Part shown: positions 6,791 through 55,530 of the stretch, piece after piece
Numbering within the stretch: position 1 is the stretch's first letter
Layout: every line of letters starts with the position of its first letter
Virus record (IMG/VR): IMGVR_UViG_3300032213_001373
Coordinates: 1 to 64,000 of that record
From: a virus
Direction: 5' to 3' (one strand)
Length of the DNA: 64,000 nt
Translations under genes and position numbers: made by a program
Notes under the pieces: generated by a model
The model's database searches: none
Seen by the model: the letters and a program-made list of their open reading frames with translations, nothing else
Told to the model about the DNA's origin: nothing

Positions 6791-6795
6791 ACCGA

Positions 6796-7332: not shown

Positions 7333-7336
7333 AGAG

Positions 7337-7363
7337 AAAGGCCCGGGAAACCGGGCCTTTTTT
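7337..7363. terminator. Bidirectional intrinsic terminator
   Basis: AAAGGCCCGG-GAAA-CCGGGCCTTTTTT between convergent genes. Confidence 0.85.
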
Positions 7364-13180: not shown

Positions 13181-14224
13181 TTATGAAGCTGCAGCCCAAG
13201 GTGTGATTGTGATTGTTGCTGTTGATGCCACTGAAGCTGCACCAGCTGCTGTTGACTGTGCCTTGATTGTTCCAGCAACTGCCACAACTGAACCTGTAAT
13301 GCTTGTAAGAGCCAATACTGTGGTTGCTGTGGTTGTAACTGTGAATGTGTTGTCTGTGAGCTTGGTGATGGTGTATGTGCCGTTAACAGAAGCGTCAACA
13401 CCAGAAATTGTGACCTTGTTACCGGTAACAAATCCGTGTGATGAATCTGTAATGGTTGTAACGCCTGAGCCTGCTGTACGTGAAGCTGCTGTTACAACGC
13501 CTGCAGCGTTTGTAGCCGCTGTAGCTGTAGTAATGTTAGCTGCTTCGTAACCAGCATCCTTGAGTGTGTCAAGAGCTACTGCTGTTGTCTCGCCGAGTAC
13601 GTTAGGTACTACGATGTAAGGAATTCCAGCGCCATCAGCTGCTGAACGAGCTGTTGTCTTTTCTACCTTGCCGTACCACTGTCCGGTAATTTCACCAGCG
13701 CTAGCTGCGTTAGTTACTGTGAACTTAAGTGGGTTTGCTGTAGCAACAGTTGCTGCTGAAAGATTGTAAGCAGAAGCTGTTAGGCCTGTGATGTTTACAA
13801 CGTCGCCAGCTGAAAGTTTATTCTGTGATGTGTATGTAACAGTTGTTCCGTTACCTGAAGCTGCTGTAACCATGTAGTTACCTGCTGCTTCTACATATGA
13901 AGGAAAGTTAGCCCACTCAGCTTCAATATCTGAGTGATTTCCAAGTGATGCGTTTAGGCGAGCACTTGCGATAGTAGACTTAGTTGTCCACTGTCCGTTC
14001 TGTGCAGCACCGTATGTTGTTGTAGCTGTTGGAGTTCCATCAGCACGCTCATCATTTGGTTGTGCAGGAAGATTTCCCCAGACGAAGTCTGTCTGTAGGT
14101 TTCCTGCTGAGTCGGTAAGGTTACCGTTGTTATTTGTTGTTGCGGCAGTATTTCCAATTGTGATGGATTCTGCTCCTGTACCGCTTGGCGACCCAACGGC
14201 CGCGGGTAGGTTGTAGCTTGACAT
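13181..14224 (-). CDS. Thr/Ala-rich virion structural protein with repeated beta domains and a PASTA-like domain
   Basis: Two VTAAS...GDxVxIxG...FTVT units; VVPNVLG...A...L..AG and GTIKAQS PASTA halves. Confidence 0.7.
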   Translation of the reverse strand: MSSYNLPAAVGSPSGTGAESITIGNTAATTNNNGNLTDSAGNLQTDFVWGNLPAQPNDERADGTPTATTTYGAAQNGQWTTKSTIASARLNASLGNHSDIEAEWANFPSYVEAAGNYMVTAASGNGTTVTYTSQNKLSAGDVVNITGLTASAYNLSAATVATANPLKFTVTNAASAGEITGQWYGKVEKTTARSAADGAGIPYIVVPNVLGETTAVALDTLKDAGYEAANITTATAATNAAGVVTAASRTAGSGVTTITDSSHGFVTGNKVTISGVDASVNGTYTITKLTDNTFTVTTTATTVLALTSITGSVVAVAGTIKAQSTAAGAASVASTATITITPWAAAS

Positions 14225-14284
14225 TAAATTTTCCTCACTTGATCAATGTGATTGTTCGGTCGAACTCGCCTATGATGACAGAAA

Positions 14285-14851
14285 TCAGGCCTCTTGTATG
14301 TATGTATAGATCTTTCCACCTGAATAGATGTCATGCTTGCAAGCGATCTCAATTGCCTTGCGGAGAATCTTTTCGGCGGCCTCGGGTGTATCTACTTTGG
14401 CGTAGTTAAGGGCTTCGAGAGCTCCTAGTGCTACATCACCCCCACTACCTGCGTAGTAGATGTTGCGGGCTTCTCGGTCCCAAGAGTAGTCATTAAAGAT
14501 CGGGTAGATAGTTCCTCTAACAGAAACGATAAGGTTAGAGTCTTGCCATGCTGCATCGCCATCATCTTTAGCATCATAGCCGGCATCTTGAAAAGCTTTA
14601 CGCATTGATGGGATAAAGCGTTTAGTCATAAATATATCTAAATCTTCAGTTGCACGAGGTTTTGGAGGTTTCCAACCAAATTGCGTAATGTTTCCACCAC
14701 GGGAAGCGCCAGAGACTGCAATTAGTACTCCGTTATTATTAATGACCTTAGATGTTGCAAGTTCCATATAACGGCCATCTTCATCGGATGCACGAGAGTC
14801 GCAACCAATTACAGACCAACCATCTCCTTGAATTGCAACAAGCGTCGTCAT
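14285..14851 (-). CDS. Ntn-hydrolase peptidase (HslV / proteasome beta-like)
   Basis: N-terminal MTT, GCDSR, SKV, AGSGG..ALGAL, DIYSGG. Confidence 0.88.
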   Translation of the reverse strand: MTTLVAIQGDGWSVIGCDSRASDEDGRYMELATSKVINNNGVLIAVSGASRGGNITQFGWKPPKPRATEDLDIFMTKRFIPSMRKAFQDAGYDAKDDGDAAWQDSNLIVSVRGTIYPIFNDYSWDREARNIYYAGSGGDVALGALEALNYAKVDTPEAAEKILRKAIEIACKHDIYSGGKIYTYIQEA

Positions 14852-14909
14852 TTAAAACCCTTCAGAATTTCGGAGGCCCGGTTTGGTGTAATACACCTAG
14901 GGTATCAGA

Positions 14910-15326
14910 TTATCGACCTTCTGATTGACCCATACGCATCTGGTCGACGGGCTTTCTTGGTAGAGCTCCTGCACCTTCTCCAGTGATATCTGTCCAAGCT
15001 TGATCATCTATACCTGAATACTTCAAGAATTTACCTGTGGAGTCTGAGTATTTCAAATTCTCCCATACTTCCTCTGGGATAGGGTCATTGTACATAACCC
15101 AGGTCTTATCACGGAAAACTACTACTAAGGTCTCTGTGTCCTTGTTATAGCCCAATACGAGGGCTCTAGGGAAGCTGCTATCGGTCGTAGGGGCTTCTAC
15201 AGTCTCATACCCTGGTCCGAATGGAGAGTAACCAGATGCATCATTGAGCACGTTCTGACTACGCAGCCTGTCCATTGAGGCTCTGATTTCCCGTGACAGT
15301 CCACTTGTGTAATATCGTTTTCCCAT
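14910..15326 (-). CDS. KTSC-domain-like protein
   Basis: GYNKDTETLVVVFRDKTWVMY...VWENL..SDSTGKFL. Confidence 0.7.
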   Translation of the reverse strand: MGKRYYTSGLSREIRASMDRLRSQNVLNDASGYSPFGPGYETVEAPTTDSSFPRALVLGYNKDTETLVVVFRDKTWVMYNDPIPEEVWENLKYSDSTGKFLKYSGIDDQAWTDITGEGAGALPRKPVDQMRMGQSEGR

Positions 15327-15347
15327 GCTTTGTATTCTACACCCCCC

Positions 15348-15519
15348 GGCTACTGCCTAGAACTGTCAAAGCCTTGGAGTTATTTAGCTACTCTCATTTT
15401 AGATATCTAGCTCCCCGACTTTTTTCTTTATGATCATAGTTCCCCCGACTTTTTGCCCCACAGCTTGTCAAGTATGATCTTTCTCACATTTTGGTCATCA
15501 CCTTTTGGCTACTGCCTAG
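15348..15519 (+). repeat. Short direct repeats at the strand-switch / putative genome end
   Basis: GGCTACTGCCTAG at 15348 and 15507; TCCCC(C)GACTTTTT twice (about 15412 and 15441). Confidence 0.6.
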
Positions 15520-15597
15520 CTTTCTGGATCGTAGCAGTCACTCTCAGCTGCTGGAGACTGGGGACAGGGGCGACTTAAGGGTGGGGGGTGGCAAACC

Positions 15598-15745
15598 GAT
15601 TTACAAGGGGTATGGAACTCAAGCGAGCCAAGTGGGGCAACGACAGGATTACTCTGTCTATGCCCGTGATAGGTAACCTTCCTGCGTAGGGTGGGCAGGG
15701 TGCGACCGCAAGTTAGCCCTGCCTACCTACTAGCCCTTGTAAGTC
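15598..15745 (+). ncRNA. Structured element A (multi-stem, 12-bp closing helix)
   Basis: GATTTACAAGGG / CCCTTGTAAGTC enclosing GGGCA..GACAG..CTGTC..TGCCC and a 14-bp hairpin at 15686-15730. Confidence 0.5.
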
Positions 15746-15784
15746 CATAGACCTTCTATGGCGTGGGGTGAAGAAAGGTAACAA

Positions 15785-16330
15785 ATGTCCAATGCGACAT
15801 TGTCTCTTATAGAGACAGCCCGCCTGCTCGTATCAGGCGATAAGGAAGCATCACTAGAGACTATTGCTCTAGCGTATCAAGCAGGTTCTACCCCGCTTGA
15901 ACTATTCACAACCGACAAGCCAACCGCTACTATGCGTGGCAAGGCTTGGGGTGCTTACATTGTCTATAAGTATCCAGACATCAAAGTCTCCCACATTGTG
16001 AAGCACCAAGCCGCTATCGGCAAGAAGTCCGAACTATTGGACTTCACACTCTCATCTGATGCTATGTCTGCTGCGCTCACCGACCTTACCGACTTGGTAA
16101 AGCAAGAGCGTAAAGAAGCAGAGGCTCAAGCCATCATCTCAGGTCAAGCCCTGACTGATGACCTTGATGCTCTAATCACCTTGCTAACCAAGGTGAACGA
16201 CAACCCAATCTATCCGACTATCCAGAACACCTTGCAGTTTAAGGTTGCTTTGGACAAGATGACCGCATTGCGGGGGTCATTTGGTCATACTTCGGTAGAA
16301 GTCAAGCAGGAAGAGCCTTCACTAGTCTAA
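15785..16330 (+). CDS. Hypothetical early protein
   Basis: 181 aa, GAAAGG RBS, followed by hairpin. Confidence 0.8.
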   Translation: MSNATLSLIETARLLVSGDKEASLETIALAYQAGSTPLELFTTDKPTATMRGKAWGAYIVYKYPDIKVSHIVKHQAAIGKKSELLDFTLSSDAMSAALTDLTDLVKQERKEAEAQAIISGQALTDDLDALITLLTKVNDNPIYPTIQNTLQFKVALDKMTALRGSFGHTSVEVKQEEPSLV

Positions 16331-16337
16331 TCACTAG

Positions 16338-16385
16338 ATGGAAGTAAGCAGGGGGTGGGCTATGTCCTGCCCCCTGCCTCTTTCT
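16338..16385 (+). terminator. Possible intrinsic terminator
   Basis: GCAGGGGGTGGG...CCTGCCCCCTGC followed by CTCTTTCT. Confidence 0.5.
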
Positions 16386-16508
16386 ATGCTCATACACTAT
16401 GTATGGTCATAGATGGAGAGTTCCGACCAATCGGACGACAACTATCTGTAACGATAGACTCCATACGCATAGGTTACAACTATCACTAACACTTGTGTCT
16501 TCTGTCTA

Positions 16509-16554
16509 GAAGAGCCCTCAGCCGACCCCTTTTATTGTCGGTTGGGGGCTCTTC
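16509..16554 (+). other. 18-bp hairpin (2 G-U pairs)
   Basis: GAAGAGCCCTCAGCCGAC / GTCGGTTGGGGGCTCTTC. Confidence 0.65.
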
Positions 16555-16861
16555 ACATCAGGCTACTGCTATTTAGCGCCCAAGACAGACCATCAGTAAC
16601 ACCAGGTCTGAGCAGGGCTGCTCTATCTATTATCAGGTAATTGGCTTAGTCCAGCCAGCAGAGGCTATGTCTTGTAGTTATGAGATGCCTTACTGCAAAG
16701 AGGACTTCTATCAGGTAGTTGTAGATGGAAGACATAGAACTAGGCAGTATGTTGAGGCTCGCAAGGTATTCATTTACCTAAGTAGCGTGTAGGCATACTA
16801 TCTACTCTCTGTGTCTTCTCTCTATGACTATTAGATAGTCAGTTCCCCGCCTTTTTTTCGC

Positions 16862-16947
16862 GTAGATGGTGATGGATACACAGGACTATGTCGTACTGGC
16901 CCGTCGGTCTATGAGGTCTTTTCCCTGTGTATCTCTCACTCTCTATG
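16862..16947 (+). ncRNA. Structured element E (long irregular stem)
   Basis: GATACACAGG / CCTGTGTATC extended by GTGA/TCAC and GTAGA/TCTAT. Confidence 0.4.
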
Positions 16948-16971
16948 TTGAGAGTAGTTTAGGAGCAGTAA

Positions 16972-17139
16972 ATGTTTGATGAAGATGAGTGCTGCACTCC
17001 CCTACAAGAAGCAGCCACAGTTATAGCCAAGCATCTGAGTGAGTTCTATAACGACCGCTCTCATAAAGATGAGATACCTACTTGCATAGTGTGTATGTCT
17101 TTCTTTATGGGAACACAGAACGCAGATAGTTTGGCGTAA
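16972..17139 (+). CDS. 55-aa hypothetical protein
   Basis: AGGAG RBS; MFDEDECCTPLQEAA...CIVC... Confidence 0.6.
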   Translation: MFDEDECCTPLQEAATVIAKHLSEFYNDRSHKDEIPTCIVCMSFFMGTQNADSLA

Positions 17140-17162
17140 TACACCAAATCTTCCCCGCGAAG

Positions 17163-17452
17163 TCTTGAGATGGACAGAGGGCACACTGAATAGGCTTTTG
17201 ATTATCACCGAGAACGAGGAATCTATGTGGGTGTAACTATTATCATAGAGGGGGCGTGAAGAAGCGAAGTAGTACGGACTTGGGTGCTGAGGTATCCAGG
17301 GGGCGATAGTTACCTGCCCAAGTAGGAGTGGTGTATGTAGTAAGAGACGCGACCGAGACTGCATACGGAGTGAAGCAACGCAAAAGAACTATGGCTGTGA
17401 GTCTCACGATAATACCTTTAGTAATTCAGTGTGCCGTCTGTTCATCTTAAGA
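17163..17452 (+). ncRNA. Structured element B, about 290 nt, closed by a 29-position helix
   Basis: 17163-17191 pairs with 17424-17452 (26 WC, 2 G-U, 1 mismatch); internal stems TCTATG/CATAGA, ACTTGGGT/GCCCAAGT, GAGACT/AGTCTC; terminator-like hairpin downstream. Confidence 0.65.
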
Positions 17453-17482
17453 TGATTAGTTTTTCTGACGGGATAGGGGAAA

Positions 17483-17528
17483 GCCCCTCGCCAATAGTCC
17501 CTCGCTATTGGTGAGGGGCACTTTTTTT
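17483..17528 (+). terminator. Intrinsic terminator
   Basis: GCCCCTCGCCAATAG / CTATTGGTGAGGGGC then ACTTTTTTT. Confidence 0.75.
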
Positions 17529-17555
17529 GTCCCATTTTTATCGAAAGGAACAATT

Positions 17556-17807
17556 ATGGTCACAGTTATTCGTTGTGGCACCGTCCTCCAAGGTGATGGC
17601 GGTGCTTCTACTGGTGCTGAGGTCTTGCAGTTCAAGCCCTCAATCAATGACGAGAATTGCACGATTATCTTGTGCAAAGCACCAAACAGTCCCCACCACC
17701 CCTTTGTTGTATGGACATACAACGAAATCACAGGCAAGTGCGGAACGGGAGATTACTTTGAGACAGTCACCGAGGCTGCTCAACGCTTTGACGAAAGGAA
17801 ATGGTAA
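17556..17807 (+). CDS. Hypothetical early protein
   Basis: ATG 17556 after GAAAGGA; HPFVVWTY...GDYF....EA...FDER. Confidence 0.75.
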   Translation: MVTVIRCGTVLQGDGGASTGAEVLQFKPSINDENCTIILCKAPNSPHHPFVVWTYNEITGKCGTGDYFETVTEAAQRFDERKW

Positions 17808-18019
17808 TGAACTCGTTACACATAAAGATCGACATAGCCAACACCATTGGAGAGAAACAATGGGTTGAACTACACAACAAACTAGAGGCAGAGATTCACC
17901 GCTTCTTGTTTTCATTAGTAACACAGAACAAAGTAATACCCACCCGAAAGGAAATCAATGCCATCGAACAAGTACATAGTCAGGGATTACAGTCACAAAC
18001 CGAAATGTGCCACAACTGA
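17807..18019 (+). CDS. Hypothetical protein
   Basis: Coupled TAATG junction. Confidence 0.5.
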   Translation: MNSLHIKIDIANTIGEKQWVELHNKLEAEIHRFLFSLVTQNKVIPTRKEINAIEQVHSQGLQSQTEMCHN

Positions 18020-18263
18020 GTGCATCAAGTATGTGTACAAAAACTATGCCTATTGTTATGCGTGTAATTACATACAAGAGGGTATGGAATTATCTCCCGA
18101 AGAACAGCAAGAACTAACTGAGTCTTTAAATAGAATCAGTTGTAACAGTGATAAGTACATTGATTACTTAATGAGACAAGCCCCCGGTGTCTCAGAAAAG
18201 CCTGAGGTTAGGCTAGAGAAAGCCATCAATTACAACAGCCCGTTGATTGATGAAGAAGAATAA
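17958..18263 (+). CDS. Hypothetical protein with Cys motif
   Basis: GAAAGGA RBS; C-x4-C...CxxC. Confidence 0.7.
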   Translation: MPSNKYIVRDYSHKPKCATTECIKYVYKNYAYCYACNYIQEGMELSPEEQQELTESLNRISCNSDKYIDYLMRQAPGVSEKPEVRLEKAINYNSPLIDEEE

Positions 18264-18447
18264 TTCCTCGAGAAGGGGATACACAGTAACGACCAAGGTA
18301 ATCCCACAATGGATAACAGCCGGCCCTCTGCGCTCTAAGCGCAACGGCTTAGGTGTAGACGCTTTCTACTTAAATGTTACTCACGCCTATGGGTGGGAAA
18401 GTGCTGTGGTTGGTCTGACGAGACCTGAGGTAAAACACGACCCGTAA
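18250..18447 (+). CDS. Possible hypothetical protein
   Basis: Short ORF overlapping upstream stop; weak RBS. Confidence 0.35.
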   Translation: MKKNNSSRRGYTVTTKVIPQWITAGPLRSKRNGLGVDAFYLNVTHAYGWESAVVGLTRPEVKHDP

Positions 18448-18469
18448 GCATCGGGACATACCTGCTTCC

Positions 18470-18500
18470 TCACCTGAGCAAGTGAAGGCTAAACTGCTCA
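18470..18500 (+). promoter_or_regulatory. Compact H-type pseudoknot motif, copy 1
   Basis: TCAC-CTGAGCAA-GTGA-AGGCT-AAAC-TGCTCA; covarying copy at 55531-55557. Confidence 0.65.
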
Positions 18501-18524
18501 CCTATTCAAGATTGGAGGTTTGAA

Positions 18525-18647
18525 ATGGCTACAGTCAGTGACATCGTAAAAGTTACTATCAAAGAATTAAATTTCAGCAAGGTTGAACCAGTAACTGCTG
18601 CAGATTGGCAGATTGTTAATAACTATCTGTTAGAACGCTGCAAGTAA
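18525..18647 (+). CDS. 40-aa microprotein
   Basis: GGAGG RBS; MATVSDIVKVTIKELNFSKVEPVTAADWQIVNNYLLERCK. Confidence 0.65.
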   Translation: MATVSDIVKVTIKELNFSKVEPVTAADWQIVNNYLLERCK

Positions 18648-18673
18648 TACTCCCGACTAAGAGTTGTTAGTTC

Positions 18674-18706
18674 GCCTGTGTAGATTTCATCGTCTATACA
18701 GGCACG
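18674..18706 (+). promoter_or_regulatory. Minihelix + ACG motif, copy 1
   Basis: GCCTGTGTAGA-TTTCATCG-TCTATACAGGC-ACG. Confidence 0.6.
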
Positions 18707-18934
18707 TGGGCAGAGACATAATGAGTGGCCAAGAGCCGAGAAGGATCATTAGTATGAAGTGCCTTATCTGTTGTAGGTTAGTCGGGTATCCCGTGGGGAA
18801 ACTACTCCCGACTTAGCAACCACTCAAAACACTAGAGACTAAATGCGTTTGCTGTTGACAGCGTTGCCTCGGGGTAACCCACGCAACGCCGAGGCTAGAG
18901 TCAGGATACCGTTGACAGTGGCGTCTCTGCCCAC
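18706..18934 (+). ncRNA. Structured element C, about 230 nt; Ms1-like candidate
   Basis: Perfect 12-bp closing helix GTGGGCAGAGAC / GTCTCTGCCCAC; internal stems; motif words GGCCAAG, GAGAAGG, CTCCCGAC, TAGCA, ACCCACGCAAC, CGCCGAGG. Confidence 0.6.
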
Positions 18935-18957
18935 ACCCTACAAGAGAAAGAAAACAA

Positions 18958-19110
18958 ATGGCTGGAGTAAAAGTATCAAAAGAGACAGCTATGACCATAG
19001 AGGAACTCAAGAAGCAATTGTTTCTTGCTATTGAAGTCCTCAATGGTTTTACAGAAAACGAAGCAGAAAAGAACTGGGAGTGTGAAAATGGCAAATGCAA
19101 ATGCCAGTAA
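18958..19110 (+). CDS. 50-aa microprotein
   Basis: Hand-read MAGVKVSKETAMTIEELKKQLFLAIEVLNGF...CENGKCKCQ after GAGAAAG. Confidence 0.55.
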   Translation: MAGVKVSKETAMTIEELKKQLFLAIEVLNGFTENEAEKNWECENGKCKCQ

Positions 19111-19348
19111 GTTATCTCACGTCTACAACCCGTGGGGACCAACCATCATCGACCACGGCGATGGGATGATTGAACAAGTCATTGATGATAAGACAATGTG
19201 GCACCCATATTGTGATCCGGAGAACCCACTCACCAACGCTGAGTATCAAGCAGTGTGGGATGAGGATGCTCTCTTATGTTTCCAATGTAAACGCTTCTTG
19301 GATTCAGAAGAAAATATGGTAAAAGAACTTACACGTGAGCGGGAGTAA
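19088..19348 (+). CDS. Hypothetical protein
   Basis: ATG 19088 after GGAG; HPYC...CFQC. Confidence 0.7.
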   Translation: MANANASKLSHVYNPWGPTIIDHGDGMIEQVIDDKTMWHPYCDPENPLTNAEYQAVWDEDALLCFQCKRFLDSEENMVKELTRERE

Positions 19349-19400
19349 CTAGGTTACGAAAACTCACCTCGTAGGCTGCTAGCCGTCAGACAATACGGCA

Positions 19401-19433
19401 GCCGGTGTGGATGTCATAGTCCACGCCGGCACG
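19401..19433 (+). promoter_or_regulatory. Minihelix + ACG motif, copy 2
   Basis: GCCGGTGTGGA-TGTCATAG-TCCACGCCGGC-ACG. Confidence 0.6.
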
Positions 19434-19477
19434 CAGGTCGCCAACACAAACATCGCGGCGCCGGCAGAAGGGACAAT

Positions 19478-19762
19478 ATGCTAAAACGCAAACTAGTGAG
19501 CAAAATAGAGCGCATGATGGTAGAGCAAGAGCTCGAAATTCATGACCTCGACTCACAACATAGTAGGGCGTATCACACGGGCATCATCGATGGCCTAGGT
19601 ATGGCTCTCTTTGCGCTATCCCCAAAACGTGCTCGTCGTAATCCAATCAGTATCGTATGGTTTGATGAAGATTATGATGAACCACGTCAACTAGAACAAC
19701 ATCGTGAGACTGTATTTGATGCGGTCAATGAATCGTTGTTTTCAACAGCGGAGGCAAAGTAA
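19478..19762 (+). CDS. Hypothetical protein
   Basis: 94 aa, AGAAGGG RBS. Confidence 0.75.
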   Translation: MLKRKLVSKIERMMVEQELEIHDLDSQHSRAYHTGIIDGLGMALFALSPKRARRNPISIVWFDEDYDEPRQLEQHRETVFDAVNESLFSTAEAK

Positions 19763-20464
19763 ATGCAACACCGTTATGTAAAAGACTATGCAACAGCAGT
19801 TGCATGGCTCAAAGGTGGTCGTAAAAAACACGATCGCCCCCTCTATTCCCGAGGACTTCGTCTTCAATATAGAACAGGGAATAGAATCGCAGTCGTAGAC
19901 AGGTGGTCAGGTACAGACATTTTGTATTACCACCCTGATGACACTATGACTATACAAGCCCCAACAGTTACGACTGCTTGGGGTAGCCAATACAGCCTAC
20001 TTAGATCTCAATCAGTTCGACTAGTTCTGTCTGAGTATGCTGGGTTTCAAAACCTCTATGTAAAAAATGGTAGGGCTCACATACTGGAGTATGGACACAA
20101 CAACACTCCCCCCAAGATTCAAAAGTGTCGTTCGTGTAGTGGGTTAGGTAAACAAAAGGCTTGGTGCACACCAGTTACCTGTTGGAATGACCCGTGCAAG
20201 TATCCTGACAGACCAGTGCTCAACGCTAACAAGTACCGTAATTGGCACGAACATTCGTGCGAGCACGGTAACCACAAGATGCATAAAATCTATACTGAAA
20301 ATGATTGCTATCGCTGTGGAGGCGCTGGCAAAGCCGATTACGGCTCAAAGCCTATTGCAATGATGTGGGACGGTTCTCCGTTGCGTATCAAGCACGGGCA
20401 AATTATAAACAATCAACCAACTGAACTAGAGAAAGCGATAGCAGCCTATGTCAAGACAGGTTAA
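19763..20464 (+). CDS. Hypothetical protein with DnaJ-type CxxCxGxG zinc motifs
   Basis: CRSCSGLG and CYRCGGAG; GGAGG RBS. Confidence 0.75.
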   Translation: MQHRYVKDYATAVAWLKGGRKKHDRPLYSRGLRLQYRTGNRIAVVDRWSGTDILYYHPDDTMTIQAPTVTTAWGSQYSLLRSQSVRLVLSEYAGFQNLYVKNGRAHILEYGHNNTPPKIQKCRSCSGLGKQKAWCTPVTCWNDPCKYPDRPVLNANKYRNWHEHSCEHGNHKMHKIYTENDCYRCGGAGKADYGSKPIAMMWDGSPLRIKHGQIINNQPTELEKAIAAYVKTG

Positions 20465-20939
20465 TTACACAGGTGAGTTTGTACAAACCATCTATGTTTC
20501 AAACCACGACCCAGAGTTATCTGCGATGGCAATTCTTTCTGATAAGCAAATACCAGAAAGTTTTGTCCAGTTGTCAGAGAAAAGCAAGTCATACAAAGAG
20601 TGTGTACTAGCACACCTTCTATTAAAAGTAACTAATCACGATGAGTTATTAGATACTATGTGTTCTTTCATGCGTTCTGCTCCTGAGGGTGGAACAACTG
20701 CTAAAGTTATGACTGAATACGCCGCATCAATTGCGTTTGCGCTTGAGCACAAGGACCTAGCAATTGACATCATCACACGAAACCAACCATCTGAGGTTGG
20801 CCCACACATCTGGTCCTTAGTTAGTGCAATCAAGAAAGGTATGCCAGGAGTTATGTATCAGTCATTGCTGACATCTAACTTACATCTAGCATCTACCGAG
20901 TGGGATCAAAGCAGAGCTGTAGTGATTAACTCACTATAA
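20448..20939 (+). CDS. Hypothetical helical protein
   Basis: 163-aa ORF overlapping upstream stop. Confidence 0.75.
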   Translation: MSRQVNYTGEFVQTIYVSNHDPELSAMAILSDKQIPESFVQLSEKSKSYKECVLAHLLLKVTNHDELLDTMCSFMRSAPEGGTTAKVMTEYAASIAFALEHKDLAIDIITRNQPSEVGPHIWSLVSAIKKGMPGVMYQSLLTSNLHLASTEWDQSRAVVINSL

Positions 20940-20944
20940 CAAAC

Positions 20945-21074
20945 GCCCCAGTCACATCACGTCTGCACTGGTATGAATCCAAACTATAAGTAGACAACAT
21001 CGCTCACCTTTAAGGGAGTATGTCTGTTTACTTTCCCGGGTGATTACCCCTTCGTTGATGGGTGTGACTGGGGC
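20945..21074 (+). ncRNA. Structured element D (14-bp closing helix)
   Basis: GCCCCAGTCACATC / GGTGTGACTGGGGC; internal AAGTAGACA..CAT / ATG..TGTTTACTT and GGGT/ACCC stems. Confidence 0.55.
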
Positions 21075-21412
21075 ATCAAGTTTCTTGTACGGTGAGAAAC
21101 ATCACCCTAAATACTTGATCCGACCCAAGCCGGAACGCAAAACAGTAGCCCGTTGAGCAGATGCCCGAACGTGACTTAGTTAGTCCGCCTGAGCGCTGCC
21201 GCGAGTAGTTACTTGAGCAAGCCCGTAGTCGCTAAGGTTCCAGCCTCTTTAGGCTTCGTGTGTAAACCATACAAGATGCCCCCGGGGTATGCCTTATAGG
21301 TATAACCCCGGGGGATTTATAAATTACGAGGGCAATAGATTTCCCAACAAATCGTTGGGAAACTATCGGCGTGTCCCATTGACTAGCCGATAGTGCTATC
21401 ACTACGATAGCA
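21075..21412 (+). ncRNA. Structured element F (tandem stems upstream of MoxR gene)
   Basis: ATCAAGT/ACTTGAT, GC.GGAAC/GTTCC.GC, CCCCCGGGGT/ACCCCGGGGG, then three back-to-back hairpins at 21340-21412; no credible ORF. Confidence 0.5.
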
Positions 21413-21443
21413 AACGAATCCACATACCGAGAAGGGGTAGGAA

Positions 21444-22871
21444 ATGGATATCGCTATATTCACAGAGTCGTACGAACCAATTATGGGTGCTAAGCGCCGT
21501 CAGGTTCTAATCACACCACACGGTGACAACGTACGAATCTATTCACGCAACACTGACGGGACCAAAGGTCCACACAATAAGTGGGACGAAATTGATCTCG
21601 ACAGTCTCGTGGGACAGATCGGTGCAGGTGAGTGTCTTACACGCACACCAGTCGGCGTATATGTTACGTCAGCAGATGAGCGTGCTATGACAGACAAGGG
21701 TTACTCTCCTGTCCTTGGTACCAAAGCGTGCCAGGCTCACACCAAAGCAACCGTATCAACAGACCCAGTGCTTGACATCATCTATGAAATCTATAGCCGA
21801 GTCGAACAGCGTGACGCCACGCTTGAAGACTACGTTATCGATGGACGTCGTCAGCCAGGTTCTGTAGTGCCGGTTGTAACTGCTCCAACACAAACAATCG
21901 CACAGCCAGCACCACAACTTAACCAGGCTGCATTGGATAAGTTTGAAATCCAACTACCAGCAGCTCCGGTGTATGCAGCGCTAGCGTCAGTGCCACGTAA
22001 AGAACTTGCTGAAAAGTATGTTCATCGTCAGATTTGGAGTCGTGATGACTTCGAGATCTTTGACTATGCTCGTAGTAACAGCATTAACGTTCTTATCTAT
22101 GGCCCTACCGGTCCCGGCAAGACAACCTCTGTCGAAGCCTGGGCTGCTGAGCGTCAGCTCAAGTTAGCAACCGTATCTGGTAACGCAACTATGGAACCTA
22201 GCCAAATGTTTGGCAAGATGACAATGGTTGACGGCTCCTGGGTATGGATTGATGGTCCTGTAACTGATGTAGTTCGTAATGGCGGGGTTCTTCTCCTTGA
22301 CGAAGTTAACTTCATCAACCCTAAGATCTACACAGTTCTGTATTCATTGATGGACGGTCGTCGTAGCATCACGCTCCTCGATCATCTTGGCGAGACTATT
22401 CAGGCTCACAAAGACCTGACTGTATACGCAACTATGAATCCAGACTACATCGGTACAACACCACTCAACTTTGCGTTCCGCAACCGTTTCGACATCCAAA
22501 TCCCTTGGGACTACGATGACAAGGTTGAGAACAAGTTGGTTGATTCCAAGTCATTGTTGGCATTGGCTCGTCAGCTTCGCGTTGAAGCTGCTAAGGGTCA
22601 GTATGAGACACCAATCTCAACCAACATGCTCATGGAGTTCCATCAGTTCGTTGATGCATTGGGCTATGAGTTCGCAGTTGAGAACTTCATCGCTCACTTC
22701 TCTGCTGATGAGGCTGCATCTGTGCGCCTTGTCTTCCAGACATTCGAACACAACATCAAGTCTGACTTTGGTATCGAGATTCCAATTGTTGTAGAACAAC
22801 AACCAGAATCTAAATCACCAGACGAGAAACTTGCAGAGTGGGCGGGTCAATTCGCTCCTGTTAATGTCTAA
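21444..22871 (+). CDS. MoxR/CbbQ/CobS-type AAA+ ATPase
   Basis: GPTGPGKT, LLLDEVN, ATMNPDY, FRNRF. Confidence 0.92.
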   Translation: MDIAIFTESYEPIMGAKRRQVLITPHGDNVRIYSRNTDGTKGPHNKWDEIDLDSLVGQIGAGECLTRTPVGVYVTSADERAMTDKGYSPVLGTKACQAHTKATVSTDPVLDIIYEIYSRVEQRDATLEDYVIDGRRQPGSVVPVVTAPTQTIAQPAPQLNQAALDKFEIQLPAAPVYAALASVPRKELAEKYVHRQIWSRDDFEIFDYARSNSINVLIYGPTGPGKTTSVEAWAAERQLKLATVSGNATMEPSQMFGKMTMVDGSWVWIDGPVTDVVRNGGVLLLDEVNFINPKIYTVLYSLMDGRRSITLLDHLGETIQAHKDLTVYATMNPDYIGTTPLNFAFRNRFDIQIPWDYDDKVENKLVDSKSLLALARQLRVEAAKGQYETPISTNMLMEFHQFVDALGYEFAVENFIAHFSADEAASVRLVFQTFEHNIKSDFGIEIPIVVEQQPESKSPDEKLAEWAGQFAPVNV

Positions 22872-22882
22872 GAAAGGACATC

Positions 22883-24820
22883 ATGTTCCAAGACGAGTTC
22901 AATGATGGCTTTTATGGTGCCGCCAGAGAAGAAGAGGAACAAGAGCGTGCCTTGCGACTTAACACACTATGTCGTGTGTATGAGCAAGCCGATCGAGTTC
23001 TGTCTGGCGACCCTGTAACAGTCAATGTCGTGACGTCTGGTCCAGCTCCGGCTTGGTCAGACGGTGCGTCAATCACATTCAATGCAGAACATATCACTGA
23101 TATGGATCTGGAAACATTGACACAAGTAACTGGTCTTAATTACCACGAGCTTTGTCATCACCTGTATACACCCCGCAAGGGAACAGAGATGATGAAGTGG
23201 GTAATGGAGAACAACTACATTGAGAGTATGAATATACTCGAGGACCAACGCATCGAGACTTTGTTTACCGCAAGGTTTCCATCTGTTATCCCATTCCTTA
23301 CAGCAACCTGTGCTAGGTGGCTGGCAGAGAGTGAAGATGAAGTTGCAGGCAATTACATTGCCATTCGTGGTCGCAGGTATCTGCCTGTAGAGATTAGAGA
23401 AGCATTCAGAGATGCTTTTGCTTTCCCTAATCTAATTCCAGTTATCGCAAGAGTTGTTGATGAGTATCGCTTGCTTACGTTCCCCAAGGACTACAAACGA
23501 GCACAAGAACTAATCAAAGAACTCAATGACCTAGTGCTCAAGCCAACAGGCATACTCGATGATATGCATAGAAATCCTAACTCACCTCACGGTGGTCCAA
23601 ATGGATGCGGTCATCGTGCCCCTGTGGCTAAAGGCAGACCAGAACCTGGTAAGGCTCAGGAGAAAGACTCTCAACGTGCTCGAGGTATGGGCACACCAGA
23701 AAGTCCATACACTCCTAGCAAACCAAAACAAACACCAGAACCAGGTGCGGGAACTATTGATCCTAAAGACATTGTAGATAGCAAACACAATAACAATGGG
23801 CAAGGCAGTAGTCCTGTACGCACTATGACACAACAGCAAGCATTGGATGTGCGTGACTCTCGTGTAGATTCACACACCCCACAGCCTGCTGGTTCTGGAC
23901 ACAATCCAAGCGTAGGTGGCGTTCCTAAAGATGTAATCAAAGGAATGTTATCCGACGCTATTGACGATGTACTTGCACGTAAAGATGTACAGCAAGACAT
24001 CAAGACTAAGCAACGTGTAATCGTTGGTGGTGATGGTAAGCACGACGATGCTACAAAGCGTGGCAAGTTTGACTTAACCGCAGCACCAGCAGAAGCAATC
24101 GTTGCTTATCGTCGTTTCGCACGAGAGCTACAACGCTTGCGTGATGACTCTGAACCTCATTGGGTCAAAGAAACTCCTACTGGTAAATTCAATGTCAATC
24201 GAGTTATGAAAGGCTGTGAACCTGACGAAGCATTCGACCGTTGGGATGAAGGCGATGATGGCTGTGACATTGAGGCTGTAATCCTTGTCGATCGTTCAGG
24301 CTCTATGTCTAGCGGTCGCAATGACCAAAAAGCATCGGTGGCCTGTTGGACTATCAAGCGTGCTCTTGAGCACATTGAGGCTCCAGTGACTGTCTATGCA
24401 TTTGATGACCAGAACGAGGTTGCTTACACTCGAGACGAAAAAGCCAATCGCACACAATACAAGTTCATCTACGGCAACGGTGGTACTCATCCGTATCCAG
24501 CGTTGATTGCAGCTGAACAGTTACTCATGGCCTCACGTAAAAAGAACAAGATGTTGTTCTTAATTACTGACGGTGAGTTTAACTCCGAAAAGAACGACCA
24601 GTTGATTACCCGCATCGCATCCCGCGGTGTTCTAACAGCCATGACGCTTATCATGAGTGACAAGGGTTACAATCAACTCATCACTGACTACAACAGAACG
24701 CCAGACGAGTTCCGTCATGGTGCCGAGATCTTTGGCCGTGTTAATAGCGCTGAGGATCTTCTTCCATTCGCTAAATCTATTGTTACTGGGGCAATCAAAA
24801 AGCGCTCCCGTATGCGGTAG
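22883..24820 (+). CDS. VWA-domain protein with N-terminal HExxH metallopeptidase-like region (CobT-like partner)
   Basis: HELCH...NILED.RIE; MIDAS DRSGSM, GGT, ITDG. Confidence 0.88.
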   Translation: MFQDEFNDGFYGAAREEEEQERALRLNTLCRVYEQADRVLSGDPVTVNVVTSGPAPAWSDGASITFNAEHITDMDLETLTQVTGLNYHELCHHLYTPRKGTEMMKWVMENNYIESMNILEDQRIETLFTARFPSVIPFLTATCARWLAESEDEVAGNYIAIRGRRYLPVEIREAFRDAFAFPNLIPVIARVVDEYRLLTFPKDYKRAQELIKELNDLVLKPTGILDDMHRNPNSPHGGPNGCGHRAPVAKGRPEPGKAQEKDSQRARGMGTPESPYTPSKPKQTPEPGAGTIDPKDIVDSKHNNNGQGSSPVRTMTQQQALDVRDSRVDSHTPQPAGSGHNPSVGGVPKDVIKGMLSDAIDDVLARKDVQQDIKTKQRVIVGGDGKHDDATKRGKFDLTAAPAEAIVAYRRFARELQRLRDDSEPHWVKETPTGKFNVNRVMKGCEPDEAFDRWDEGDDGCDIEAVILVDRSGSMSSGRNDQKASVACWTIKRALEHIEAPVTVYAFDDQNEVAYTRDEKANRTQYKFIYGNGGTHPYPALIAAEQLLMASRKKNKMLFLITDGEFNSEKNDQLITRIASRGVLTAMTLIMSDKGYNQLITDYNRTPDEFRHGAEIFGRVNSAEDLLPFAKSIVTGAIKKRSRMR

Positions 24821-24847
24821 CCCAACACAAACAAAAGGAGGTCAACC

Positions 24848-25045
24848 ATGTACGTAGTATTTGACGGTGTCACTGAGACACTAATTGGACCATTCAATGA
24901 CTATGAAGATGCACAGATGTTCATTCTGCACGCTTCTGACTTAATCATCGATGGCAATGTGTCAGAACTAACCATCGAGCCTATCTCTGAACCACAGGAA
25001 TGGGCGTTAGATAACTCATTGGAACCACAATATGTACAGCAATAA
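24848..25045 (+). CDS. Small acidic hypothetical protein
   Basis: AAGGAGG RBS; IGPF....A. Confidence 0.75.
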   Translation: MYVVFDGVTETLIGPFNDYEDAQMFILHASDLIIDGNVSELTIEPISEPQEWALDNSLEPQYVQQ

Positions 25046-25214
25046 ACGTGAGCTGTATACCGACGTTAATCAACTTAAACTTCAAGAAGATGAGCGTTAT
25101 GAAGAATACAAAAGAGCAGTAGTCCGCTTGTTCATCAAGAAAGGGCAAGCGGATTTACTTCCTATGTTAGGACTAAGTGAAGACGATGGTCAACACCTTC
25201 CTGCCGTTTCCTGA
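25032..25214 (+). CDS. Hypothetical protein
   Basis: 60 aa, overlapping run. Confidence 0.65.
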   Translation: MYSNKRELYTDVNQLKLQEDERYEEYKRAVVRLFIKKGQADLLPMLGLSEDDGQHLPAVS

Positions 25215-25671
25215 CTACCGCAAGGTAGCCAGAACACTAGATACAAAACGCTTAGGTAAGCAACGAGTAGAAGGTTTACAGATACTCAAAGCTAACTTAG
25301 GTATGACCAAAGGATGGGTAAACCATCCTGCCGCAGTCATGTGGAGAGGACATGAAGGCTTATTGTCTATCTATATTCTCTCTATGTGTAATCGATGGGT
25401 GTCACTAGGATACAAAGACTCTGTAGCTGATCAAGTTATTGAGTTAATGGATCACATACCCGCCGATTCTTATACCAATCCGTGGTGGATGGGTAATGAA
25501 GAGTTCCATACAAGTCATCAGTCCAATCTTCAACGCAAGATGCCTATGCATTATTGCTTTGATGTAGATGATGACATACCATACAAATGGCCAATGCCAG
25601 ATGGAACCTTAAGGGTAACAGTTAAAAAAGAACCTAAAAAGAAAAGGAGCAAAAATGCCAGCAATAAGTAA
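25186..25671 (+). CDS. Pyrimidine-dimer DNA glycosylase / MSMEG_6728 family
   Basis: NTFLP..D....A..LD.KRLGKQRVE..QIL...GW.NHPA..MW.G; HxSHQSNL. Confidence 0.88.
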   Translation: MVNTFLPFPDYRKVARTLDTKRLGKQRVEGLQILKANLGMTKGWVNHPAAVMWRGHEGLLSIYILSMCNRWVSLGYKDSVADQVIELMDHIPADSYTNPWWMGNEEFHTSHQSNLQRKMPMHYCFDVDDDIPYKWPMPDGTLRVTVKKEPKKKRSKNASNK

Positions 25672-26626: not shown

Positions 26627-26641
26627 AGAGAAGGAATACAA

Positions 26642-28159: not shown

Positions 28160-28287
28160 TGGACTATGAAACTGTACTTCCTATCATTAGCAGACCAGAA
28201 AAAACTGTTAATGATGTTATGAAAGAAATCCAAGAAAGTAATGAACCCTGTGGCTGTGGACATTGCAGCTGTGGAGGCAATGTTTAG
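28159..28287 (+). CDS. 42-aa Cys-tailed microprotein
   Basis: Hand-read ...EPCGCGHCSCGGNV; coupled TAATG. Confidence 0.55.
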   Translation: MDYETVLPIISRPEKTVNDVMKEIQESNEPCGCGHCSCGGNV

Positions 28288-28310
28288 ACCGCATAGTGCT
28301 ATACAAGCAA

Positions 28311-28345
28311 ATGGCCCCCGTTCCTCAATTTGAGGCGGGGGCCAA
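28311..28345. terminator. Hairpin between convergent transcription units
   Basis: TGGCCCCCG..CCTCAA / TTGAGG.CGGGGGCCA. Confidence 0.65.
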
Positions 28346-28364
28346 ATGTTTGTGTTGGGCGATT

Positions 28365-44472: not shown

Positions 44473-44473
44473 G

Positions 44474-55507: not shown

Positions 55508-55530
55508 AACGCCCTCTTTCTCTTTGTTGG

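What the first reader, a model, noticed from the sequence alone, without database searches (positions are those of the whole stretch)
15598..21440. Array of large structured non-coding RNA-like elements interleaved with the earliest genes: candidate phage RNA system
Seen: elsewhere genes abut or overlap, but about 2 kb of this 6-kb stretch has no credible ORF. It folds into at least six multi-stem units: A 15598-15745, E 16862-16947, B 17163-17452, C 18706-18934, D 20945-21074 and F 21075-21412. A, B, C and D are each clamped by a long end-to-end helix of 12, 29, 12 and 14 positions. Non-WC positions in these helices are nearly all G-U on the + strand (they would be A-C on the - strand), which argues for selection on a + strand single-stranded fold. 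The units are punctuated by repeated processing-like motifs and a terminator. Inference: the phage makes a set of stable, end-protected RNAs at the start of infection. They could be decoys or sponges for host RNAP or defence proteins, or antitoxin mimics. I do not recognise them as a named family.
Basis: partly seen in the sequence, partly recalled or inferred. Interest (0 to 1): 0.9.

Follow-up and report, generated by a model that had tools for sequence, protein, structure and literature searches.

The report
Cluster of new phage RNA folds
A 6-kb stretch of an uncultured freshwater actinophage carries at least five conserved folded RNA elements that match no catalogued RNA family; they are kept better than the neighbouring protein genes, probably act mostly as structured leaders of short phage operons, and their function is unknown.

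Summary
About 2.7 kb of 15327-21443 has no conserved ORF.

Related IMG/VR and metagenome contigs show strong compensatory base-pair changes for B (29 distinct copies), C, the 5' part of F (F1, redefined as 21086-21273 plus hairpin 21279-21314), E, and an unlisted element G (18264-18500, ending in an H-type pseudoknot). Units A and D occur only in one 99%-related phage. A's clamp is broken there.

Rfam has no match. There is no tRNA or tmRNA, and no RT, Ro or RtcB gene. The elements are not introns, MITEs or recoded genes.

The B, G and C RNAs are more conserved in nucleotides (79-91%) than the best-kept neighbouring protein gene (72-74%).

No expression data could be obtained.

The anatomy points mainly to cis-acting 5' leaders:
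- B has a riboswitch-like closing helix with an alternative partner, followed by a terminator or a ribosome-binding site.
- G's pseudoknot recurs before a second gene.
- tRNA-like minihelices precede C.

These are real, new RNA families. How they work is inferred, not shown.

The parts
15327..15597 (+). Divergent control region between the structural genes (- strand) and this module. It holds repeated promoter-like words: GGCTACTGCCTAG (15348, 15507; a variant at 16561) and a palindrome followed by YTCCCC(C)GAC and a T-run (15408, 15441).
   Evidence: families D2, D17. The same words lie at the equivalent place in relatives. Promoter function is inferred only.
15598..15745 (+). Unit A, a folded 5' UTR of ORF 15785-16330.
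   Evidence: z -5.6. Found only in L001. One internal pair is compensated there, but four pairs of the closing helix are broken.
16348..16554 (+). Two terminator-like hairpins after ORF 15785-16330 (16348-16377 and 16509-16554).
   Evidence: I4.
16843..16958 (+). TTCCCCGCC + T7 motif. Next comes unit E (16862-16947), a long helix GTGATGGATACACAGG/CCTGTGTATCTCTCAC around a variable interior. A small hairpin ACTCTC/GAGAGT follows, 25 nt before ORF 16972.
   Evidence: z -5.1. The helix is kept in L012, L016, L013, L010, L009 and L019, with CACAGG/CCTGTG changed to CATAGG/CCTATG and with different interiors.
17133..17162 (+). Conserved word GTAATACACCAA(A)TC-TTCCCCGCGAAGT immediately 5' of B. It may be a promoter/start region or a small 5' hairpin CUUC-CCCGC-GAAG.
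   Evidence: Conserved in 20 or more B loci and duplicated in some.
17163..17452 (+). Unit B, a 290-nt multi-helix RNA closed by a 26-29 bp helix. It has invariant unpaired blocks (GUGAAGAAGC, ACGGACU, ACGCAAGAG).
   Evidence: 10 copies: 94.3% of cells paired, 41 pairs with double changes versus 18.3 in shuffles and 6-10 in slid controls. 29 distinct copies: 40 of 63 pairs compensated. The + strand is favoured.
17442..17527 (+). Platform after B. An alternative hairpin uses the 3' strand of B's outer closing helix (17442-17455, UCAUCUU/AAGAUGA). Then comes an intrinsic terminator, 17483-17519, with a T-run to 17527. The SD and ATG of ORF 17556 follow.
   Evidence: The three-way complementarity (5' strand, 3' strand, downstream copy of the 5' strand) is kept in at least three sequence classes.
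18264..18500 (+). Its parts are hairpin CCUC/GGGG, helix CACAG/CUGUG (18282-18286/18404-18408) around a variable insert, hairpin 18412-18425, and an H-type pseudoknot at 18468-18500. The SD lies at 18514 and the ATG at 18525.
   Evidence: 94.4% paired, 6 double-change pairs versus 2.6 in shuffles and 1-2 in slid controls. The insert ranges from a UUCG loop in L022 to about 120 nt here. tRNA-Met lies directly upstream in L019, L020 and L023. A second pseudoknot copy lies at 55512-55558 on the - strand.
18673..18705 (+). 12-bp minihelix (acceptor-plus-T-arm-like) followed by ACG, directly 5' of C.
   Evidence: It covaries among relatives. In L026 the same place holds a tRNA-like element with a 7-bp acceptor stem and a canonical GGTTCGATTCC T-arm but no anticodon arm. 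ARAGORN calls no tRNA there.
18706..18934 (+). Unit C, a 229-nt two-domain RNA closed by a 12-bp helix. It has a GNRA-capped hairpin and a variable 5'-domain insert.
   Evidence: 97.3% paired, 16 double-change pairs versus 7.1 in shuffles and 1-5 in slid controls. Its gene neighbours differ between phages.
19349..19477 (+). Gap before ORF 19478. It holds a second minihelix + ACG (about 19401-19431) and the CA-rich word CCAACACAAACA.
   Evidence: It is identical in L001 and otherwise not alignable.
20945..21074 (+). Unit D, a 130-nt branched hairpin with a perfect 12-14 bp clamp. It is an insertion relative to most relatives.
   Evidence: z -6.0. Found only in this genome and L001's contig. The two differences lie in loops. 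Relatives have nothing or unrelated inserts at this spot.
21086..21314 (+). F1, a 188-nt unit closed by TGTACGGT/ACCATACA (21086-21093/21266-21273), plus a 15-bp hairpin at 21279-21314.
   Evidence: 92.3% paired. 31 of 41 pairs have double changes, versus 14.6 in shuffles and 6-9 in slid controls. All 7 closing pairs and 13 of 15 hairpin pairs covary.
21334..21443 (+). F2, three hairpins and the SD region before the MoxR-type AAA gene (21444). In most relatives an ~85-aa ORF occupies part of this space.
   Evidence: The hairpin TTTCCCAACA..TGGGAAA is kept with changes in relatives.

Best explanation
Shown: the non-structural + strand module of this ~102-kb freshwater actinophage carries at least five independent, evolutionarily maintained RNA folds (E, B, G, C, F1). 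Two further folded stretches are lineage-specific (A, D). None belongs to a catalogued family.

Inferred: most of them work in cis, as long structured 5' leaders of short transcription units.

B is the clearest case. It sits just after a conserved promoter-like word. Its conserved multi-helix core is closed by a long helix, and the 3' strand of that helix has a second, downstream partner. This switch region is followed either by an intrinsic terminator and an ORF or directly by an SD and start codon. That is the layout of a riboswitch or protein-sensing attenuator that gates whatever genes follow. The ligand is unknown and the logic of the switch is unresolved.

G ends in a pseudoknot 24 nt before a start codon, and this pseudoknot recurs before a second gene, as a shared translational operator or enhancer would.

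E and F2 are leader hairpins.

tRNA-Met before G and tRNA-like minihelices before C suggest that RNase P/Z-type cuts define the 5' ends of these leaders. The 22-29 bp helices of E and B are long enough to be RNase III sites.
For: Real RNA structure:
- Covariation tests for B, C, G and F1, and helix changes in E.
- + strand preference of B, and the T-arm orientation before C.
- RNA modules are 79-91% identical in nucleotides where the AAA gene is 72-74% and the small ORFs are undetectable.
- No conserved ORF.

Cis reading:
- B is followed by a terminator then an ORF in the window and about 10 relatives, and directly by SD+ATG in L022, L012, L279, L290 and L016.
- The alternative hairpin keeps its complementarity in the sequence classes CUAUCUAUCUC/GAGGUAGAUA, CAUCUU/AAGAUG and CUGUCUUAUC/GAUAAGACAG. 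L012 and L016 carry double changes, and the L016 change breaks the closing-helix pair.
- ORF 17556 has no room for its own promoter after the terminator.
- A second G pseudoknot lies before the ORF starting at 55507.
- E, G, C and F1 each lie 25-60 nt upstream of an ORF start in every relative.

Processing context.
Against: - Promoters, ends and processing are all inferred.
- The ORFs downstream of B are of at least six unrelated kinds and G precedes different genes. This is unlike metabolite riboswitches, which keep a gene association.
- Within the main sequence class the alternative hairpin varies little: 2 double changes, and 22 of 500 shuffles do as well.
- The alternative hairpin does not overlap the terminator stem, so a simple terminator/antiterminator logic is not evident.
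- C is separated from its SD by a generic CA-rich spacer, and the SD does not covary with C's closing helix. C could equally be a free-standing RNA.
- B with promoter-like word and terminator also fits a stand-alone RNA gene.
Confidence: 0.45

Rival explanations
1. The units are cut out or terminated as discrete, end-protected stable RNAs that act in trans, for example as decoys for host RNA polymerase, RNases, tRNA-targeting defences or other immunity proteins. They would resemble T4 stable RNAs C/D or the large phage-borne GOLLD/ROOL RNAs.
For: - End-to-end helices and flanking hairpins would protect both ends.
- B has a conserved upstream word and its own terminator in many genomes.
- A tRNA and tRNA-like minihelices next to G and C imply endonucleolytic release.
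- Unpaired blocks are invariant, and the modules are better conserved than proteins and independent of which genes flank them.
Against: - No expression or end data.
- B lacks a terminator in at least five relatives and runs straight into an SD and ATG.
- No partner protein gene was found: no TROVE, RT or RtcB.
- No host homologue to mimic was found.
- A 12-nt complementarity of B to the ORF 19763 mRNA is not conserved.
Confidence: 0.3
2. The units are passive punctuation. They would be RNase III / RNase P processing sites and 5'/3' stabilising structures that split a polycistronic transcript and protect short mRNAs, as the RNase III hairpins do between T7 early genes. No ligand or partner specificity would be involved.
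For: - The helices of E (22 bp) and B (26-29 bp) reach RNase III length.
- In E, G and C the closing helices are conserved while the interiors vary or are swapped.
- tRNA-like minihelices are present.
- The units sit between short ORFs.
Against: - B, C and F1 keep elaborate interiors with invariant unpaired nucleotides over 29 copies. That is far more than a cleavage site needs.
- The clamps of C, D and F1 are only 8-14 bp.
Confidence: 0.15
3. The elements act at the DNA level. They would be inverted-repeat mobile elements (MITE-like), recombination cassettes like PeSLs, or single-stranded DNA hairpins of an origin or promoter.
For: - D is a clean insertion with perfect 12-bp terminal inverted repeats, absent from most relatives.
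- Modules and flanking ORFs are shuffled among relatives next to repeated short words.
- On C the - strand folds as well as the + strand.
Against: - Each unit is single-copy in the genome.
- D occurs in only two near-identical genomes in IMG/VR and shows no target duplication.
- Helices deep inside B, C and F1 covary, and B prefers the mRNA-sense strand with many G-U pairs. This fits RNA.
Confidence: 0.05
4. One or more units are self-splicing or self-cleaving ribozymes: a group I intron, or an HDV-like, twister or hammerhead ribozyme that trims a neighbouring tRNA.
For: - C contains AGAGACUAAAUG, which resembles the group I R element, and a GNRA hairpin.
- G lies directly 3' of tRNA-Met in five relatives and contains a pseudoknot.
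Against: - No Rfam ribozyme or intron hit even at E<=10.
- The flanking genes of C differ between phages, so there are no exons.
- The G of GACU varies while its supposed P7 partner is invariant. Covariation instead pairs GAC with GUY of CCGUUGA.
- G's pseudoknot has no P3 or P4 between its strands, unlike HDV-like folds.
- The CUGA of a hammerhead-like word is lost in L012.
Confidence: 0.05

Closest known systems
Riboswitch and protein-sensing attenuator leaders of bacterial and phage operons (generic class; no specific family)
   Same: B shares several features with this class. It has a conserved multi-helix core with invariant junction nucleotides, closed by a P1-type helix. The 3' strand of that helix has an alternative downstream partner. 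The same core is followed by two kinds of expression platform in different genomes, a terminator or an SD. It sits just after a promoter-like word.
   Different: No match to any Rfam riboswitch. At 290 nt it is larger than most. There is no constant downstream gene. The alternative hairpin does not overlap the terminator. No ligand is known.
GOLLD and ROOL RNAs, and T4 stable RNAs C/D (phage-borne structured RNAs of unknown function, often beside tRNA genes; Weinberg et al. 2009/2017, PMC5737381; Kretsch et al., PMC12286853; T4 from my own knowledge)
   Same: They are phage-encoded, elaborately folded and of unknown function. They have tRNA or tRNA-like neighbours (tRNA-Met before G, pseudo-tRNA before C in relatives).
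   Different: No sequence or structure match (Rfam searches negative). The units here are 90-290 nt, against about 580-800 nt. There are several different families in a row rather than one. Accumulation as free RNA is not shown.
RNase III processing hairpins between T7 early genes, and rRNA-operon end-to-end helices (my own knowledge)
   Same: Structured elements lie between the genes of a phage non-structural operon. Long end-to-end helices (E 22 bp, B 26-29 bp) enclose a folded interior, as the helices around 16S/23S rRNA do.
   Different: T7 sites are simple ~60-nt hairpins. Here the interiors are large and conserved, and most clamps are too short for RNase III.
PeSL promoter-terminator cassettes of T4-type phages (PMC2839356, PMC4122927)
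   Same: Short repeated regulatory words (palindrome + TTCCCCG + T-run; GGCTACTGCCTAG) border small, shuffled ORFs in a plastic region.
   Different: PeSLs are ~50-60 nt composite promoter/terminator stem-loops. The motifs here are different in sequence, and they accompany much larger conserved RNA folds.
csRNAs predicted from IMG/VR (Fremin, Bhatt and Kyrpides 2023, PMC10690425)
   Same: Same data source (IMG/VR intergenic regions) and same kind of evidence (covariation). That survey reports tRNA-like and cis-regulatory leader candidates.
   Different: Those models are 29-151 nt, mean 67, so at most they cover sub-hairpins of B, C or F1. The supplementary lists were not available, so overlap could not be checked.

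Membership tests
Any Rfam 15 family (including 6S, Ms1, GOLLD, ROOL, raiA, riboswitches, ribozymes, Intron_gpI, phage pRNA, Y RNA) | Covariance-model score at or above the family's gathering threshold | tested here: not met
   0 hits in the 64-kb window. Only hairpin-type noise far below threshold at E<=5-10 on the whole stretch and on B, G, C and D+F separately.
tRNA / tmRNA | Cloverleaf or tmRNA recognised by ARAGORN | tested here: not met
   None in the window. Relatives carry tRNA-Met next to G. There is a pseudo-tRNA without an anticodon arm before C in L026.
Group I intron | Interrupts a host gene whose exons are conserved and contiguous in intron-less relatives | tested here: not met
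   The homologue of ORF 18958 lies upstream of C in L012, L013, L016, L017 and L022 but downstream here. C is directly followed by a different ORF in those phages.
Group I intron | P3-P7 pseudoknot core with paired R/S elements | tested here: not met
   The GACU/AGUC pairing is not supported. The G varies (G/A/C) against an invariant partner, and covariation supports another helix.
Riboswitch-type leader (generic class) | Conserved aptamer-like core closed by a P1 helix, upstream of coding genes on the same strand | tested here: met
   B.
Riboswitch-type leader (generic class) | The 3' strand of P1 alternates with an expression platform (terminator or SD) | tested here: inconclusive
   An alternative hairpin is kept across at least three sequence classes and a terminator or SD follows. 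Covariation within the main class is weak, and there is no overlap with the terminator stem.
Riboswitch-type leader (generic class) | Constant association with functionally related downstream genes, and a defined ligand | tested here: not met
   At least six unrelated downstream ORFs. The ligand cannot be tested with these tools.
Retron msr-msd RNA | Flanking inverted repeats plus an adjacent reverse transcriptase | tested here: not met
   Inverted repeats are present, but there is no RVT_1 match in the complete genome.
Y RNA / Ro system | TROVE-domain Ro protein (often with RtcB) encoded nearby | tested here: not met
   No TROVE or RtcB match in the genome. The VWA protein at 22883-24820 matches only VWA_2.
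MITE-like mobile element | Multiple dispersed copies with terminal inverted repeats and target-site duplication | tested here: not met
   Every unit is single-copy in the genome. D is found only on one other near-identical contig. No duplication is visible.
T7-type RNase III processing signal | About 20 bp or more of dsRNA between cistrons, cleaved by RNase III | not testable with these tools
   The length criterion is met by B and E only. Cleavage needs an experiment.
Stable trans-acting phage ncRNA | A discrete abundant transcript with defined ends | not testable with these tools

The most novel reading that the evidence does not exclude
B would be a new, unusually large sensor RNA, either a riboswitch or a protein- or tRNA-binding attenuator. 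A freshwater actinophage would use it to gate a block of non-structural genes on the state of the host cell. C and F1 would be further orphan ligand- or protein-binding RNAs. The phage would then devote about a third of this module to RNA-based control or counter-defence.
Probability: 0.22. Interest if true: 0.85.

Novelty: new variant of a known kind. Interest (0 to 1): 0.62.

Why it matters
Phage genomes are annotated almost wholly by their proteins. Here about 40% of a 6-kb module is RNA structure under stronger purifying selection than the surrounding genes. It comprises at least five unrelated folds, two of them 230-290 nt long.

If B is a sensor, it would be a rare case of a phage-specific riboswitch-like class and a handle on how uncultured actinophages time gene expression. 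If the units are free RNAs, they add mid-sized members to the small set of orphan phage RNAs (GOLLD, ROOL, T4 RNA C/D) whose roles are still unknown.

Either way, the alignments built here give ready material for Rfam-style models, for structure probing and for ligand screens.

Tried and rejected
- Stop-codon recoding: rejected because stops are mixed in all frames.
- Hidden conserved ORFs: none.
- Group I intron reading of C: no exons and no P7 covariation.
- HDV-like or hammerhead reading of G: wrong topology, and the core word is not conserved.
- Trans pairing of B's loop (ATAGAGGGGGCG) with the ORF 19763 mRNA: a 12-nt perfect match here, but it drops to 5-8 nt in all relatives, including the 99% one.
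- SD sequestration by the 3' strand of C's closing helix: the SD region ACAGAAGGGA stays constant while the helix varies.
- Host homologue of B: a three-block pattern scan of 185,579 genomes gave two hits (a Subtercola MAG and an Acidobacteriota MAG). Neither shows any profile similarity, so both are chance.
- Partner genes: no TROVE, RT or RtcB. The T7-type RNAP search was uninformative because its controls were silent.
- D as a mobile element: no other copies.
- The first two IMG/VR pattern scans were too loose and returned mostly chance hits. Profile searches kept only members of this phage clade.
- INPHARED phage records have no nucleotide match.
- Fremin 2023 supplements are not held.

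Full report
CONTEXT. The window is the first 64 kb of a 102,327-bp IMG/VR virus record with direct terminal repeats. It is a tailed dsDNA phage. Portal and large terminase lie on the - strand to the left of the stretch, and ribonucleotide reductase, DNA polymerase and helicases lie to the right. Its DNA polymerase is closest to those of ~113-116 kb Streptomyces phages (BRock, Alone3) at about 40% identity, so an actinobacterial host is likely. The flagged stretch is the start of a + strand block (15785-27289) that diverges from the structural genes at 15327-15784. That these are the 'earliest' genes is an assumption.

OBSERVATION. With the credible ORFs marked, about 2.7 kb of 15327-21443 is non-coding. 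All three stop codons occur in every frame of the gaps. Among homologues the longest open frames change strand and phase and never span a unit.

The closing helices were found independently as inverted repeats.

In a 150-nt scan of the whole genome, corrected for G+C, 12 of the 40 most over-folded + strand windows fall in this 6% of the genome. Here 11.5% of windows have z<-2, against 2.4% genome-wide.

Rfam gives nothing at gathering thresholds. At E<=5-10 it gives only hairpin noise, whether the whole stretch or single units are searched. ARAGORN finds no tRNA or tmRNA.

COMPARATIVE EVIDENCE. The MoxR-type AAA protein (21444-22871) retrieved 26 related IMG/VR loci at 52-99% protein identity. 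A, D and the gap 19349-19477 exist only in the 99% relative L001.

B. Ten copies give 89 consensus pairs, and 94.3% of cells form standard pairs. 41 pairs change on both sides, against 18.3 +/- 2.6 in shuffles and 6-10 when the 3' partners are slid. A three-block pattern found 29 more metagenome contigs. With 29 distinct copies, 40 of 63 consensus pairs show compensatory change. The alignment folds to -67.9 kcal/mol (89 pairs) on the + strand and -40.7 (50 pairs) on the - strand. B is therefore an RNA of mRNA sense. Blocks such as GUGAAGAAGC, ACGGACU and ACGCAAGAG are unpaired and almost invariant.

C. 46 pairs, 97.3% paired, 16 with double changes versus 7.1 in shuffles and 1-5 in slid controls. 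Its features are:
- a 12-bp clamp;
- a 7-bp second helix (UGAGUGG/CCACUCA changed to UGAUUAG/CUAAUCA) around a variable insert;
- a GNRA-capped hairpin (GUAA, GCAA or GAAA);
- a long-range helix closing the 3' domain.
The strand test is ambiguous for C. However, the element just upstream is a tRNA-like minihelix, and in L026 it carries a canonical GGTTCGATTCC T-arm, which only makes sense on the + strand.

F. The covariation-supported unit is F1, 21086-21273, closed by TGTACGGT/ACCATACA. A 15-bp hairpin at 21279-21314 follows. In total 41 pairs are 92.3% paired, and 31 have double changes, versus 14.6 in shuffles and 6-9 in slid controls. The rest (F2) is three leader hairpins. Most relatives have an ~85-aa ORF there instead.

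E. The long helix is kept in six relatives, including the distant L019. CACAGG/CCUGUG becomes CAUAGG/CCUAUG, the interiors are unrelated, and a small conserved hairpin and the SD follow.

G (18264-18500, new here). It consists of a hairpin, a helix CACAG/CUGUG whose interior ranges from a UUCG loop (L022) to ~120 nt (window), a second hairpin, and an H-type pseudoknot at 18468-18500. Both pseudoknot stems show compensatory changes: CAC/GUG to GUC/GAC in L019, L020 and L023, and G-C to A-U in L009 and L015. 94.4% of cells are paired, with 6 double-change pairs versus 2.6 in shuffles and 1-2 in slid controls.

A and D. In L001 unit A has one compensated internal pair, but four pairs of its clamp are broken. 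D differs from its L001 copy at two loop positions only. It has no other copy in IMG/VR and is an insertion relative to most relatives.

CONSERVATION. Against relatives whose AAA gene is 72-74% identical in nucleotides, B is 81-91%, the 3' part of G is 82-91% and C is 79-88%. F1 is 69-81%, about the same as the AAA gene. The neighbouring small ORFs are mostly undetectable at the nucleotide level. The protein genes around B, G and C differ from phage to phage.

WHAT THEY ARE NOT. They are not introns. The homologue of ORF 18958 lies upstream of C in five relatives and downstream here, and C abuts a different ORF there. A group-I-like word in C (AGAGACUAAAUG) does not pair as P7 would. There is no RT, TROVE or RtcB gene. 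They are not repeated mobile DNA. No copy of B was found in 185,579 prokaryote genomes: two pattern hits showed no profile similarity. A 12-nt match of a B loop to the ORF 19763 mRNA is not conserved.

HOW THEY PROBABLY WORK (inference).

B sits immediately after a conserved word, GTAATACACCAAT(C)C-TTCCCCGCGAAGT. Similar words occur three more times upstream, at 15408, 15441 and 16843. Each has the form TA..A. hexamer, 6 nt, then TCCCCG and a T-run. They look like start regions of short transcription units.

The pyrimidine-rich 3' strand of B's outer closing helix can pair instead with a downstream purine-rich copy of the 5' strand. This three-way relation is kept although the sequences differ between classes: CUAUCUAUCUC with GAGGUAGAUA, CAUCUU with AAGAUG in the window, and CUGUCUUAUC with GAUAAGACAG in L010 and L009. 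In L016 a double change keeps the alternative hairpin but breaks the closing-helix pair. Within the main class variation is small and the statistics are weak.

Downstream comes either an intrinsic terminator and then an ORF (the window and about ten relatives) or directly an SD and start codon (five relatives). One conserved core with two kinds of platform is the signature of a riboswitch-like leader. In the window, ORF 17556 can only be expressed by reading through terminator 17483-17527.

Two points count against a classical metabolite riboswitch. The regulated genes are of at least six kinds, and the alternative hairpin does not overlap the terminator.

G's pseudoknot ends 24 nt before ATG 18525. 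A second copy (nhmmer E 1e-4) sits just upstream of the ORF that starts at 55507 on the other strand. G also precedes different ORFs in different phages. This fits a shared translational operator or enhancer.

C is preceded by a tRNA-like minihelix and followed by a generic CA-rich spacer and SD. The SD does not covary with C, so C could be a leader domain or a released RNA.

tRNA-Met directly 5' of G in L019, L020 and L023 and the pseudo-tRNA before C in L026 make cleavage by tRNA-processing enzymes plausible.

I therefore rank the explanations as follows: cis-acting leaders 0.45, free trans-acting RNAs 0.30, passive processing or stability signals 0.15, DNA-level elements 0.05, ribozymes 0.05.

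COMPARISON WITH KNOWN SYSTEMS. B works most like a riboswitch or attenuator leader but is a member of no known class. As orphan phage RNAs beside tRNA genes, the set recalls GOLLD/ROOL (PMC5737381, PMC12286853) and T4 RNAs C/D, but the units are smaller, unrelated and plural. The long clamps recall RNase III sites of T7 early mRNAs and rRNA operons. The short repeated words in a shuffled ORF region recall PeSL cassettes (PMC2839356, PMC4122927).

The IMG/VR-wide survey of Fremin et al. (PMC10690425) predicted 8,495 covarying motifs of 29-151 nt. It may contain pieces of these units, but this could not be checked.

Notes from this scan on other genomes report comparable orphan phage RNAs. They served as leads only.

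VERDICT. The elements are new RNA families restricted to one clade of freshwater phages. The decoy interpretation is untested, and a cis-regulatory reading fits the anatomy better. Function remains unknown.

Noticed in passing
window 55512-55558 (- strand): A second copy of the G-type H-type pseudoknot lies just upstream of the ORF 55067-55507 start, in the replication module (nhmmer E 1e-4).
   Followed up: partly
L012 7920-7965; L017, L013, L016, L022 downstream of C; window 19441-19452: A generic leader is used before many ORFs of this phage clade: CCAACACAAACAAAC, then ACAGAAGGGA 5-7 nt before the ATG. It is a CA-rich unstructured spacer plus a strong SD, perhaps a translation enhancer.
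   Followed up: partly
L026 8745-8806: A tRNA-like element lies directly 5' of a C homologue. It has a 7-bp acceptor stem, a short D-arm and a canonical T-arm, but a pyrimidine tract in place of the anticodon arm. ARAGORN does not call it.
   Followed up: partly
L019 7235-7309, L020 7309-7383, L023 7239-7313 (also L018, L025): tRNA-Met(CAT) lies about 25 nt upstream of the G element in the more distant relatives. The window's own clade has lost it.
   Followed up: partly
L012 6287-6373 (also L017, L022, L013): A 28-aa hydrophobic mini-ORF (MYIEFEPQTIVIICISLVFIVAIKAWRK) lies directly after B. It is absent from the window.
   Followed up: no
window 19763-20464: The 233-aa protein has two CxxCxGxG motifs (CRSCSGLG, CYRCGGAG) of the kind seen in DnaJ zinc-finger domains. 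It has no Pfam hit and is conserved across the clade at 37-49% identity.
   Followed up: no
window 19088-19348: An 86-aa ORF starts at ATG 19088 and overlaps the end of ORF 18958-19110. The mechanical ORF list gives it a TTG start at 19025.
   Followed up: no
window 4001-4150, 6601-6800, 7251-7450, 28251-28400, 44351-44550; genome 101301-101500 (+), 76601-76750 (-): These are other strongly over-folded 150-nt windows (z below -2.8) outside the flagged stretch. They were not examined.
   Followed up: no
window 13181-15326 (- strand): The genes just left of the control region match PASTA and E1_FCCH, a proteasome-type fold (C-terminal 54 aa) and KTSC domains. This is an odd set next to the structural module.
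   Followed up: no
L019 8501-8975: In the distant relative the gap holding the C homologue is ~475 nt. It also contains a 5' module beginning with the same ..GGGGAUAC.. word that starts G in the window. This suggests the modules are recombined in different orders.
   Followed up: no
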